Assembly (NCBI RefSeq): GCF_902652985.1
Contig: NC_047033.1
Span: 25,482,001 to 25,546,000 of the forward strand
Direction: 5' to 3'
From: Pecten maximus
Taxonomy: Eukaryota
Length of the DNA: 64,000 nucleotides
Shown here: one piece after another, positions 51,001 through 58,400 of the stretch
Numbering within the stretch: the first letter of the stretch is position 1
Layout of the letters: each line of letters starts with the position of its first letter
Made by a program: the position numbers

Positions 51001-52401
51001 TTCATCACGTCGTTTGTATGTTTGTGTCGATGAGACTCAATCTCGTTAAACACCCCACCGTAGGCATACTCAGGAAGAGAAAACAGGACACCATGGCCGT
51101 CAAGTAGTGCTGTCGTGGCTCCCCGTGACAACAGCAGTTTCACAATCTGCATGTAGCCTGTTAACGTAATGAAAATACTGCTGATGTCGATGATAATATA
51201 ATAGGTCTAACAATAGAACTGTCCATCAAGCCTTAAACTGCTGTTTATCTTACTTGTGGTAAATTCAGCCATGACAAAATTAATTCAAAAATAAACTCTT
51301 GATATCATTGCTCACATGTTATTGTCAGAAGATAATTTGTTCTATTAATAATAATTGATGAATCTAGTTTTGAAATTTCAATTTTATTGACTGAATTCTA
51401 CATTGTTTCTGTTTATAACTTCCATAATTACCTGAAAATTCACATCAACACATTCTATGAAACCTAACTGTTGTTTAATATCTAAACGACATGTGATAAC
51501 AGAAATATCAATGACATATCAACTGGGTACATTATTAAATATTAAAAAAAACATGTACATGAACACAAAAATGTTTCATCGGCTGAAAATTTACTGTTTG
51601 TCTTTGAATTTGATTTTATCATCGGTGAAGAAAAACCTTTTTCTGCAGCCAGTTGTAGAGCCGTCTTGCCATCTGCATTCACAGCATTAACGTTAAGTTT
51701 GCGACGAGATTGAGAACATCGATCACCAGTATGTTCCGAGTTGCTACATGTGGTGGTGAAATTGAGGAGATATTGGACAACATCCAGTTTGCCCATCCTG
51801 GCTGCAATGTGTAGGGCAGTGGAGCCGGAAGAAACATGGCGCTTTTTCACATCCGCACCCCTCTGTAACACCAAAAACTTTCTAACAACACTTTCTAATA
51901 ACCACACCCCTCTGTAACACCAAAAACTTCCTAACAACACTTTCTAATAACCACACCCCTCTGTAACAACAAAAACTTCATAAAGACACTTTCTCACATC
52001 TTCTCCCTCCCTCCAATGACAAAAAACTTTGATAATGGTGCATCATTTACCCCCCCCCACCAATAAAAACCTCAATAACAGTGATTTCTCATTGCCCATC
52101 CTGGCTGCAATGTGTAGGGCAGTGGAGCCGGAAGAAACATGGCACTTTTTCACATCCGCACCCCTCTGTAACACCAAAAACTTTCTAACAACACTTTCTA
52201 ATAACCACACCCCTCTGTAACACCAAAAACTTCCTAACAACACTTTCTAATAACCACACCCCTCTGTAACAACAAAAACTTCATAAAGACACTTTCTCAC
52301 ATCTTCTCCCTCCCTCCAATGACAAAAAACTTTGATAATGGTGCATCATTTACCCCCCCCCACCAATAAAAACCTCAATAACAGTGATTTCTCACATCCG
52401 C

Positions 52402-52432
<31 letters not shown>

Positions 52433-55400: not shown

Positions 55401-58400
55401 TACACTGTATGTACAGGGATATAGTTTACTTACACTGTATGTACAGGGATATAGTTTACTTACACTGTATGTACAGGGATATAGTTTACTTACACTGTAT
55501 GTACAGGGATATACTCACACGGTATGTACAGGGATATAGTTTACTTACACTGTATGTACAGGGATATAGTATACTTACACTGTATGTACAGGGATATAGT
55601 TTACTTACACTGTATGTACAGGGATATAGTATACTTACACTGTATGTACAGGGATATAGTATACTTACACTGTATGTACAGGGATATAGTTTACTTACAC
55701 TGTATGTACAGGGATATAGTTTACTTACACTGTATGTACAGGGATATAGTTTACTTACACTGTATGTACAGGGATATAGTTACACTGTATGTACAGGGAT
55801 ATAGTTTACTTACACTGTATGTACAGGGATATAGTTTACTTACACTGTATGTACAGGGATATAGTTTACTTACACTGTATGTACAGGGATATAGTTTACT
55901 TACACTGTATGTAAAGGGGAAATAATCCTGTATCAACATGGCATCCACAACTTCTTCATGGTTCTGTACTACAGCATGGTGTAGGGGCAGATAACCCTCC
56001 ACATCGCCAATCACAGGGTTAGCTCCCCTTCTACAAGGGGCACATTGTGAATTATGGTAAATAATTAATTACAGACTTTGAATTGTATTACTTTTAACAA
56101 TAAGAAAGTAAGAATTAATTTTGAAGATCTTTCTTATAATTCAGAATTTTTAGTTCCATAAAAGCTTTTAATAAAACTTTCATGTATCACCTATTCGAGA
56201 GAAATCTGCAGATCCTTGTCCTCAGACTTAGGACATTTTTGTCCTATGTCAAAGATAGACTTACTGGAGCAGCATCCTAACACACACTGTGTGACCATGG
56301 TAAGCAGCTATAGCCAGAGCGGTCATTCCAGTCCGGAGGCTCCCATCATAGACACCTTGCATCTACACGAACATATCATTTTACATGAATCTCTTAACTT
56401 TACTTGCTAAAAGGTGTTTAATAAAAAATAATTATCATTTTACTGTGTAATTTGTTACTATTTCCCAATTATATGAACAAATTTGATTGTCTTTTACCTC
56501 AAAAGGCTAATGGCAAAGGATTCTGAATTTAACAGTTCTTTCAATTTGGAAGAGGCCAATTTTGACACTTTTTACCACAGCTAGCTTGGGGAGGATAAAG
56601 TTGTTCTGATTTTAACATTCAATATTTACCTGACAATACTGAGCATCGATAAAAGACTTTATTCTGCTGTTATCAAAATCCAGGATGACTTTCATGCTGT
56701 CTACCCTGTCAACAAAATATGGCAAGTTTATTTTTTATACAAAAATTTATCATTATTTTTCTGAAATTCCATGATTAATCATCAATTTATCTACTCAAGC
56801 CTCATACAAAATGAACTTGTTATCTAAAATGAATATAAACTAAAATTGTAAGGTAACAAATATCCTCACCACTACCAAATTTTGACACGAGCTTCAAATT
56901 CAAACTGAGACTGGCTCAATAGGATCCAGATATGACCCAGAACATGTATTGTTATTTTGGGGGTCTGATGGATCCAAGGTGATGGCCGTGGACACCATTT
57001 TGGAAAAGATTTCAAATTTCCTGCTGATTCAGGAGCTATGATCATATGGTGTGATTTTGGCAAATGTTTGTGGGAACATTCATGGACATAGCAGACAAAG
57101 CATTGTTTATCTTCAGCTCTGTTGAAAGTTTGACCTCTACAGAGGATATTATGCTACATGACTGCACTATCATCTATATCAGAATCTTTAAACAATTTAA
57201 CACATTCCTATGTTCTCAAGTTTGAAAAACTTGGGGATTTGAATGAAACTCTCCAGAAGCCGTCCTGAGATAGAGCTGACCAATCAAAGTTGTGTAATGG
57301 GGCAATCTCTACCCCAAGTTGTTGTTCCTTACATGCTGGGTAGTGAATGCTAATGGCCAGTCTGCAACTCAGGATGCCTTTCAGTGGCCGTAACTAAGTG
57401 AACTTGAAAAACACATTTTATACATTTTCAGTCTCAATCAGTGCAATAAAGTAAACAAATTTGAGTGCCTGAACTCAAACCGACAAAGTATTGTAACTTT
57501 ACAGTGTGATCAGAAAATATTCAAAAGGCTGCACAACAAAAGTGTCCACATCCAGGCCATCATTAAAGGTTCTCACCTGTTGTGGAGAGCTGCCACCATG
57601 AGTAACGTAAACCCGTCAGAGTTAACAACACTGATGTCCGATTCTTTCAGCTCTTGAGATCTCAGTTTACCCTGCAAATATATACAAATTATTGAAAGAT
57701 GAATTTTGTTTTTCTTATTCAGAGGTGTTTGAGATTTTCTCAATGGTCAGACGAGTGAGGTTTTCAAATCTCTGGGCCCTGAGGGTAGATATGATATTTA
57801 GACAGTCGTCCCCGTATATCCTTACCTCAATGGTCAGACGAGTGAGGTTTTCACATCTCTGGGCCCTGAGAGTAGATATGATATTTAGACAGTCGTCCCC
57901 GTATATAATTACCTCAATGGTCAGACGAGTGAGGTTTTCACATCTCTGGGCCCTGAGGGTAGATATTACAGTATATTAAGACAGTCGTCCCCGTATATAA
58001 TTACCTCAATGGTCAGACGACTGAGGTTTTCACATCTCTGGGCCCTGAGGGTAGATATTATATTAAGACAGTCGTCCCCGTATGTGCCTGTCCTAGAATC
58101 ATCTGGTCTCATTCCATTGTGATCCTCACGATTAAAGTCAGCTCCTCGTCGGATTAGACAGCTGAAACACAACAATGTACTTTATTATTATCAATAACAA
58201 CACTTTTATCTGAAGTTTGTTATATTAACACAAAGCTGAATGACATTTTAATTTTGTGTCAATTCTGCTCTGCCATTATAATTGCCATAAACATTATGGC
58301 TATATTCTTGCGAAAAAATTTCTTACAAAAAATCTTCAAATTGAAACGCTATACTCAGAGAAATGCTGCCTGCTCTAATAATCAAGTCTATACCTACCAT

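What the first reader, a model, noticed from the sequence alone, without database searches (positions are those of the whole stretch)
51789..58083. Four independent tandem repeats in one gene are each seeded on a splice site
Seen: within 6.3 kb, four unrelated repeats (87-92, 30, 26 and 49 bp) each consist of an exon edge plus the adjacent GT or AG, reiterated into the intron. The true exon is always the terminal unit. Other intronic minisatellites here (47.3 and 58.4 kb) are not exon-anchored. Inference: a mutational bias that amplifies exon-intron junctions (for example transcription- or splicing-coupled breaks or slippage), producing arrays of decoy or alternative splice sites. It could be a route to intron gain or tunable splicing.
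Basis: partly seen in the sequence, partly recalled or inferred. Interest (0 to 1): 0.72.

Follow-up and report, generated by a model that had tools for sequence, protein, structure and literature searches.

The report
Splice-site-anchored minisatellites in a scallop gene
Four short tandem repeats in one scallop ankyrin-repeat gene each start on a real exon edge and copy its splice signal into the intron, a layout already known from several human genes, and nothing here shows that a special junction-targeting mutation process is needed.

Summary
The window is Pecten maximus DNA. It holds exons for residues 495-1244 of the minus-strand gene for XP_033728424.1 (ankyrin-1-like). Mapping that protein gives 17 exons and 16 GT..AG introns. 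In an unbiased scan, 4 of 32 junctions are reiterated in their own intron. These are the donors of introns 2, 6 and 8 (2, 37 and 3 extra copies) and the acceptor of intron 9 (5 extra copies). The other 28 have none. The units are unrelated to each other and occur nowhere else in the window. Orthologues align without gaps across all four junctions, so the exon-proximal copy is the site that gives the conserved protein. The layout is a known kind: minisatellites whose first monomer spans an exon-intron boundary are described for human F7, IFI6 (6-16), CBS, LMNB2 and PDGF, where the downstream pseudo-sites stay mostly silent (PMC1557585). Four in one gene is unusual under random seeding (P about 3e-4 to 1e-3). 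No intron has both ends inside an array, so intron birth is not supported. Verdict: a new member of a known kind. A junction-directed mutational bias is unproven.

The parts
39408..61831 (-). Part of the Pecten maximus ankyrin-1-like gene (XP_033728424.1) that lies in the window: 17 exons encoding residues 495-1244 and 16 GT..AG introns
   Evidence: 100% match of exon 10 to P0001; tblastn of P0001 and P0003; exon edges; accession; ankyrin Pfam families
58005..58161 (-). Exon 2; its last 77-79 nt form the first unit of the 87-92-bp array; donor GT at 58004-58003
   Evidence: the junction ...LTIE|GKLRS is gapless in 5 of 5 aligned proteins
57739..58083 (-). Array 1: 3.9 copies of 87-92 bp, each unit being 77 nt of exon end plus 10 intron bases starting with GT. 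There are 2 decoy donors, and the last copy lacks the GT. The array makes up most of the 333-nt intron 2
   Evidence: TRF; unit listing; 2 extra junction copies at +92 and +179
55904..56030 (-). Exon 6; its last 15 nt form the exon part of the 30-bp unit
   Evidence: the junction ...FTYS|GL is gapless
54769..55918 (-). Array 2: 39 intronic units (31 of 30 nt, 7 of 25 nt, 1 distal partial), each starting with a donor-like hexamer; a 12-unit block is duplicated within the array
   Evidence: TRF; unit listing; counts and variant string
53476..53581 (-). Exon 8; its last 11 nt form the exon part of the 26-bp unit
   Evidence: the junction ...NLNSQ|TGVG is gapless
53373..53486 (-). Array 3: 4.4 copies of 26 bp (11 exon + 15 intron bases); 3 decoy donors
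   Evidence: TRF
51637..51862 (-). Exon 10 (an ankyrin repeat); its start is the last unit of the acceptor-anchored array
   Evidence: the junction ...LLCE|RGADV is gapless
51789..52394 (-). Array 4: a 303-bp tandem duplication (1 difference in 303). Each copy holds 2 full 49-bp units plus an acceptor and 74 nt of exon 10. There are 5 decoy acceptors, at -49, -98, -303, -352 and -401. TRF places the 49-bp arrays at 51856-51994 and 52159-52297
   Evidence: TRF
52395..52485 (-). Older, decayed units of the same acceptor-side repeat, next to a 29-base C run (G on the gene strand). They include a sequence resembling the exon 10 start across the left edge of the 303-bp duplication, and a 15 of 24 match at 52485
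   Evidence: 17 of 2000 shuffled queries reach 15 of 24
58395..58835 (.). Comparison array in intron 1 (26 bp x 17.1), not anchored: 233 nt from the exon 2 acceptor
47327..48314 (.). Comparison array in intron 13 (19/43 bp), not anchored: 1210 and 1806 nt from the flanking exons

Best explanation
These are ordinary, young intronic minisatellites whose founding tandem duplication happened to span an exon-intron junction. They belong to the same class as the human F7 IVS7, IFI6 (6-16), CBS, LMNB2 and PDGF minisatellites. The steps are as follows. (1, inferred) A 26-87-bp segment straddling a junction was duplicated by slippage or misaligned repair. (2, shown by the sequence) The copies were amplified further inside the intron by unequal exchange, sometimes in multi-unit blocks. 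(3, inferred from protein conservation and from the human cases) Splicing goes on using the exon-proximal copy. For the three donor arrays this is the most upstream 5' site. The extra copies are therefore tolerated pseudo-sites that lie inside the excised intron and drift freely. The arrays lengthen existing introns and did not create them.
For: The gene model and its edges come from a public RefSeq protein and are GT..AG throughout. Five proteins (Pecten, two Ylistrum isoforms, Gigantopelta, Solemya) align without gaps across all four junctions, so only the exon-proximal copies give the conserved protein. The units are local: blastn finds nothing longer than 13 nt outside each junction-anchored array's own region. 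Two features show growth by block duplication. The variant string of the 30-bp array repeats a block at a 12-unit offset, matched by twin TRF rows 345 bp apart. The 303-bp duplication carries whole 49-bp units and differs at 1 of 303 bases. The decoys drift where the exon does not. All 3 decoy copies of array 1 have ACT (Thr) where the exon has AGT (Ser), and Ser is kept in Ylistrum. All 39 decoys of array 2 have G where the exon has T. Arrays make up 41% of the intron bases in this gene portion. [quoted passage not shown]
Against: Under random seeding, 4 junction-spanning arrays among 6-7 local arrays has P = 3.2e-4 to 1.1e-3. Chance is therefore not a comfortable explanation unless many genes were screened. 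Junction-spanning duplications should if anything be mildly harmful. The acceptor decoys lie upstream of the true site, where the rule that protects the donor arrays (use of the most upstream site) would favour the decoys instead. There are no RNA data, so silence of the decoys is inferred, not shown. The last copy of array 1 lacks the 10 intron bases, which a simple duplicate-and-expand history does not predict.
Confidence: 0.62

Rival explanations
1. A real mutational bias: tandem duplications arise preferentially at exon-intron junctions (for example through transcription- or splicing-coupled breaks), so junction-anchored arrays are over-produced.
For: Within-gene excess: 4 of 6 local arrays span a junction against a mean of 0.48 expected, P = 3.2e-4. 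Both donor and acceptor junctions are hit. The acceptor junction was duplicated repeatedly, with 49-bp units, a 303-bp duplication and older decayed units.
Against: This is one gene, chosen post hoc. 28 of 32 junctions in the same gene show nothing. Two further minisatellites in the gene are not anchored. There is no shared motif and no unusual single-strand fold in the units: DNA fold z-scores run from -0.79 to +1.43 for 6 of 6 stretches tested, 4 anchored and 2 not. My searches found no paper reporting such a bias.
Confidence: 0.15
2. The decoy arrays are kept by selection for a function, such as graded alternative 5' site use (in-frame 10-residue steps at exon 6), back-up splice sites, or U1 snRNP loading on the intron.
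For: The first 4 decoys of the 30-bp array are in frame and free of stops. In human IFI6 and CBS the two pseudo-sites nearest the authentic site are used (PMC1557585 introduction).
Against: Decoys of arrays 1 and 3 give a stop or a frameshift, and the 49-bp step is not a multiple of 3. Only one Pecten protein form is in the searched collection (cluster of 1). No protein of 50-161 residues carries the read-through peptide. Orthologues have no insertions at these junctions. The units drift and vary in length.
Confidence: 0.08
3. Intron birth or intron sliding by tandem duplication: the arrays are footprints of introns created from duplicated exon sequence (the Rogers model, or expansion of dual-specific splice sites).
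For: Intron 2 is 333 nt and is made of exon-derived copies except for about 67 nt. Tandem duplication of exon sequence can create introns (PMC3265369 and PMC2891723 abstracts; PMC10809524).
Against: In each of the four introns the other splice site lies outside the array and has no extra copies. The protein sequence across each junction is colinear with distant molluscs, although that says nothing about their intron positions.
Confidence: 0.05
4. Assembly artefact: the arrays or their copy numbers come from mis-assembly of repeats.
For: The 303-bp duplication is almost perfect (1 of 303). The gene also carries a one-base frameshift in exon 16 that makes the RefSeq entry 'LOW QUALITY'.
Against: The units carry ordered internal variants, indels and higher-order structure. 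The arrays are 0.1-1.2 kb. Existence of the arrays, as opposed to exact copy number, is unlikely to be an artefact. Raw reads could not be examined here.
Confidence: 0.03

Closest known systems
Human F7 intron 7 37-bp VNTR minisatellite (PMC1557585; abstract, introduction and discussion passages seen)
   Same: The first monomer spans the exon-intron boundary, so the authentic donor is followed by identical 5' pseudo-sites in the intron. The exon-proximal (most upstream) site gives the normal mRNA.
   Different: F7 has one array per gene, with 4 exon bases in the unit and 5-9 copies. Here three donor arrays and one acceptor array sit in one gene, with 11-79 exon bases per unit and up to 39 decoys. 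Use of the sites here is inferred and not measured.
Human IFI6 (6-16), CBS intron 13, LMNB2 and PDGF minisatellites, as listed in the introduction of PMC1557585; the original papers were not read
   Same: The splice donor is reiterated by a minisatellite that starts on the exon edge. In IFI6 and CBS the nearest pseudo-sites are used as well, which parallels the in-frame, stop-free first four decoys at exon 6 here.
   Different: All are donor-side cases in mammals. No acceptor-anchored case is mentioned in the passages read. Polymorphism is documented there and untested here.
Intron creation by tandem duplication (Hellsten et al. 2011, PMC3265369, abstract; Lehmann et al. 2010, PMC2891723, abstract) and dual-specific splice sites in tandem repeats (Duan et al. 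2024, PMC10809524, abstract and passages)
   Same: Tandem duplication of sequence containing splice signals. The extra copies are removed as intron, so the duplication is tolerated.
   Different: Those models need both the 5' and the 3' site of the intron to come from copies of the same unit. Here only one end of each intron is in the array, so the arrays enlarge pre-existing introns.

Membership tests
Junction-spanning intronic minisatellite with reiterated pseudo-splice sites (F7 / IFI6 / CBS type) | Head-to-tail array of short units (tens of bp) in an intron | tested here: met
   TRF periods 87, 30, 26 and 49 with 3.9, 39.5, 4.4 and 2.8 copies
Junction-spanning intronic minisatellite with reiterated pseudo-splice sites (F7 / IFI6 / CBS type) | The first (exon-side) monomer spans the exon-intron boundary, so the authentic splice-site sequence is repeated in the intron | tested here: met
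   Exon edges from P0001 mapping; extra junction copies number 2, 37, 3 (donors) and 5 (acceptor)
Junction-spanning intronic minisatellite with reiterated pseudo-splice sites (F7 / IFI6 / CBS type) | The exon-proximal site is the one that gives the normal mRNA | tested here: met
   By protein only: the RefSeq model and 4 other mollusc proteins are gapless across the 4 junctions. No transcript data.
Junction-spanning intronic minisatellite with reiterated pseudo-splice sites (F7 / IFI6 / CBS type) | Pseudo-sites silent or used only next to the authentic site | not testable with these tools
   No RNA-seq. Only indirect evidence: the P0001 cluster has 1 member, and no protein of 50-161 residues has the read-through peptide
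Junction-spanning intronic minisatellite with reiterated pseudo-splice sites (F7 / IFI6 / CBS type) | Copy-number polymorphism (VNTR) | not testable with these tools
   Only one assembly sequence is on hand
Intron born by tandem duplication (Rogers model / dual-specific splice-site expansion) | Both splice sites of the intron lie in successive copies of the same unit | tested here: not met
   The acceptors of introns 2, 6 and 8 and the donor of intron 9 lie outside the arrays and have 0 extra copies
Intron born by tandem duplication (Rogers model / dual-specific splice-site expansion) | Intron absent at that position in related species | not testable with these tools
Ankyrin-repeat protein gene (host gene) | Pfam ankyrin-repeat families above their curated cut-offs | tested here: met
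   For P0001: Ank_2 246.6 bits, Ank 215.5 bits. Exon 10 alone: Ank_4 39.3 bits and Ank 37.8 bits

The most novel reading that the evidence does not exclude
In scallops (or more widely) tandem duplications are seeded preferentially at exon-intron junctions, on both the donor and the acceptor side. Junction-anchored minisatellites would then be a systematic product of a transcription- or splicing-linked mutational process, and a standing source of decoy and alternative splice sites. This gene would be the visible tip of a genome-wide excess.
Probability: 0.12. Interest if true: 0.7.

Novelty: new member of a known kind. Interest (0 to 1): 0.3.

Why it matters
Minisatellites that start on an exon edge are natural experiments in splice-site choice, because many identical sites compete and the cell must pick one. 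One invertebrate gene here carries three donor-side cases (2, 3 and 38-39 decoys) and one acceptor-side case (5 decoys, upstream of the true site). It would be a compact test bed for whether the 'most upstream 5' site wins' rule seen in human F7 holds outside mammals, and for what the matching rule is at 3' sites. If a genome-wide count showed a real excess of such arrays, that would point to a junction-linked mutational process. As the evidence stands, this is a curious cluster of a known phenomenon.

Tried and rejected
Hairpin-driven slippage: single-strand DNA folds of stretches from the 4 anchored and 2 non-anchored arrays gave z-scores from -0.79 to +1.43 for 6 of 6, so none is unusual. 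Rejected as an explanation.

Dispersed-element origin: blastn of one unit of each of 6 arrays against the window found only chance matches outside their own arrays: no more than 13 nt for the four junction-anchored units, and at most 16 nt for a comparison unit. The anchored units are therefore local. By contrast the 145-147/326-bp satellites recur across the window. They were left out of the main null, and including them as if local gives P = 0.044.

Evidence for decoy use in protein collections: the contiguous read-through of exon 6 into the array (93 residues, length setting 'near', so proteins of 50-161 residues only) found no candidate. Longer proteins were not searched with it.

tRNA and Rfam scans of the whole window found 0 and 0 hits. 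Calling some window repeats 'tRNA-derived SINEs' therefore rests on my recollection of the sequence type only.

Papers that turned out not to bear on junction anchoring: PMC10078293 (passages) and PMC4039745 (passages).

Literature searches for a reported genome-wide excess of arrays at junctions found none. One search, on the P. maximus genome and tandem repeats, was seen as a listing only and no paper from it was read. The library lacks most subscription journals, and supplementary files were not opened.

Not checked: any eukaryotic genome (orthologous loci, genome-wide enrichment), RNA-seq and raw reads.

The window has no N and is scallop, not human. The spliced model was never joined. Only exon 10 alone and exon 6 with its contiguous genomic read-through were sent to searches. 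Exon mapping used the public protein returned.
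Full report
What the window is. The window has no N. The translation of 51638-51862 (minus strand) matches a 1244-residue RefSeq protein at 100%: 'LOW QUALITY PROTEIN: ankyrin-1-like [Pecten maximus]' (P0001, XP_033728424.1). It matches a Ylistrum balloti orthologue (P0003, XP_060074269.1) at 70%. The DNA is therefore king scallop, not human. tblastn of P0001 and P0003 against the window places residues 495-1244 on the minus strand between 61831 and 39408. Refining each piece against P0001 gives 17 exons and 16 introns, all GT..AG (the donor of exon 14 was off by one and was corrected). 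The exon bases sum to 2251 after that one-base correction (2252 as printed), against 2250 expected. The extra base is a single inserted base at 40539 in exon 16, which explains the 'LOW QUALITY' label. P0001 is an ankyrin-repeat protein. Only single exons were sent to searches.

The observation. TRF reports all four arrays at the stated coordinates. Read on the gene strand, each begins inside an exon.
- Array 1 (57739-58083) consists of 77 nt of the end of exon 2 plus 10 intron bases beginning with GT, repeated. There are two decoy donors. The second unit has a 5-nt insertion, and the fourth copy stops at the exon-derived part without a GT.
- Array 2 (54769-55918) consists of the last 15 nt of exon 6 plus 15 intron bases. 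Its 39 intronic units begin GTAAGT (36), GTAACT (2) or GTGAGT (1), and 38 of the 39 GT positions are preceded by AGT, as at the true site.
- Array 3 (53373-53486) consists of the last 11 nt of exon 8 plus 15 intron bases, with 3 decoys.
- Array 4 lies upstream of exon 10. The 49-bp units end in the acceptor and are followed by the first bases of the exon. TRF includes 7 exon bases, and 17 of the first 23 match. The whole block, together with 74 nt of exon 10, is duplicated as a 303-bp unit that differs at 1 of 303 positions. This gives decoy acceptors at -49, -98, -303, -352 and -401. Weaker, older units continue to about 52485.

An unbiased check. For all 32 junctions I searched the 16-mer made of 8 exon and 8 intron bases within its own intron, allowing 2 mismatches. 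Exactly these 4 junctions have extra copies and the other 28 have none. The four units share nothing with each other or with the rest of the window beyond matches of 13 nt or less, so they are independent local events.

Which copy is the real splice site. P0001, two Ylistrum isoforms (which differ only at the N-terminus), Gigantopelta and Solemya proteins align without gaps across ...LTIE|GKLRS......FTYS|GL......NLNSQ|TGVG... and ...LLCE|RGADV.... Only the exon-proximal copy therefore gives the conserved protein. After exon 2 a stop falls inside the first decoy unit. After exon 8 the step is 26 nt, a frameshift. After exon 6 there are four in-frame, stop-free 10-residue steps before a 25-nt unit breaks the frame. 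The acceptor step of 49 nt is not a multiple of three.

Is it more than chance? Arrays fill 41% of the intron bases of this gene portion. I collapsed each array to one unit and placed seeds of the observed unit lengths at random. Seeds lying wholly inside an exon were rejected, and a seed counted as spanning a junction if it had at least 5 nt on each side. The mean number spanning a junction is 0.48 for the six local minisatellites, and P(4 or more) = 3.2e-4. Adding a 55-bp duplication gives 1.1e-3. Adding the three dispersed satellite arrays as if they were local gives 0.044. The cluster is thus unusual for one gene. However, it was picked because it is striking, the number of genes screened is unknown to me, and the window contains no other multi-exon gene to test. 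The other genes in it are intronless.

How the arrays grew.
- The variant string of array 2 repeats a block of units at a 12-unit offset, and TRF shows twin rows 345 bp apart. This indicates block-wise unequal exchange.
- The 303-bp duplication carries entire 49-bp units and is nearly perfect, so it is very recent.
- The distal-most partial units of arrays 2 and 3 are the most diverged copies. They could be old copies or pre-existing chance similarity that seeded slippage. I cannot tell which.
- The decoys share changes that the exon lacks. In array 1 the exon has Ser where all 3 decoys have Thr, and the exon state is kept in Ylistrum. In array 2 the exon has T where all 39 decoys have G. This fits a constrained terminal unit and free intronic copies that were amplified from one another.
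- Single-strand DNA folds of the units are unremarkable.

Comparison with what is known. [quoted passage not shown] The genes are F7 (37 bp), IFI6/6-16 (25 pseudo-sites), CBS, LMNB2 and PDGF. For F7 it shows experimentally that the pseudo-sites are functional but that only the most upstream 5' site is chosen. The three donor arrays here fit that class feature by feature, except that site use and polymorphism could not be tested. The passages I read mention no acceptor-anchored array. Models in which tandem duplication creates an intron (PMC3265369 and PMC2891723 abstracts; PMC10809524) require both splice sites to come from copies of one unit. That requirement is not met in any of the four introns. 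My searches found no report of a genome-wide excess of arrays at junctions.

Conclusion. The best reading is a cluster of four junction-spanning minisatellites of a known kind, tolerated because splicing keeps using the exon-proximal site. The intron-gain idea fails its defining test here. Tunable splicing is conceivable only at exon 6. Still unchecked are genome-wide enrichment, transcripts, orthologous loci, raw reads and population variation.

Noticed in passing
window 2627-35567 (+ strand): Five tandem copies of an intronless AMP-binding enzyme gene (Pfam AMP-binding plus AMP-binding_C, tested on the copy at 8052-9764). Two have intact 571-residue frames (8052-9767, 13427-15142). Three are split into two overlapping frames, as if by a frameshift (2627-4341, 27838-29464, 33796-35567).
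   Followed up: partly
window 4990-6173, 10481-11551, 16818-18742, 19365-19928, 31458-32311 (smaller remnants at 22569-22725 and 25072-25199): Long arrays of one 32-bp unit recur next to the AMP-binding gene copies. They are open in several + strand frames for hundreds of codons (Thr/Gln/His/Pro-rich). It is unknown whether any of this is coding.
   Followed up: no
window 40539 (exon 16 of the ankyrin gene): One extra base relative to the RefSeq protein breaks the frame at residue 1095/1096. This is the likely reason for the 'LOW QUALITY PROTEIN' label. It could be an assembly error or a real frameshift allele.
   Followed up: partly
window 20548-21904, 23340-24407, 41350-44370, 45821-46597, 59382-60167, 62571-63999: Satellite-like arrays with 145-147, about 326 and 155-bp periods recur inside and outside the ankyrin gene, so they look like a dispersed (mobile-element-borne) family and not like local duplications. 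Together with the other arrays they make 41% of the intron bases tandem repeat.
   Followed up: partly
window 187-441, 46600-46830, 52868-53110, 61048-61260: Copies of a short interspersed repeat whose head looks tRNA-like to me (recollection only; ARAGORN and Rfam call nothing). The copy in intron 8 has an internal 55-bp duplication (52868-52973).
   Followed up: partly
window 52403-52431: A run of 29 C (G on the gene strand) in intron 9, directly upstream of the 303-bp duplication and abutting an old copy of the exon 10 start.
   Followed up: no
window 36106-37385 and 38670-39266: A 29-bp array of 44.8 copies and a 47-bp array of 13 copies lie just beyond the stop codon of the ankyrin gene (39408). 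They may be in its 3' UTR or downstream.
   Followed up: no
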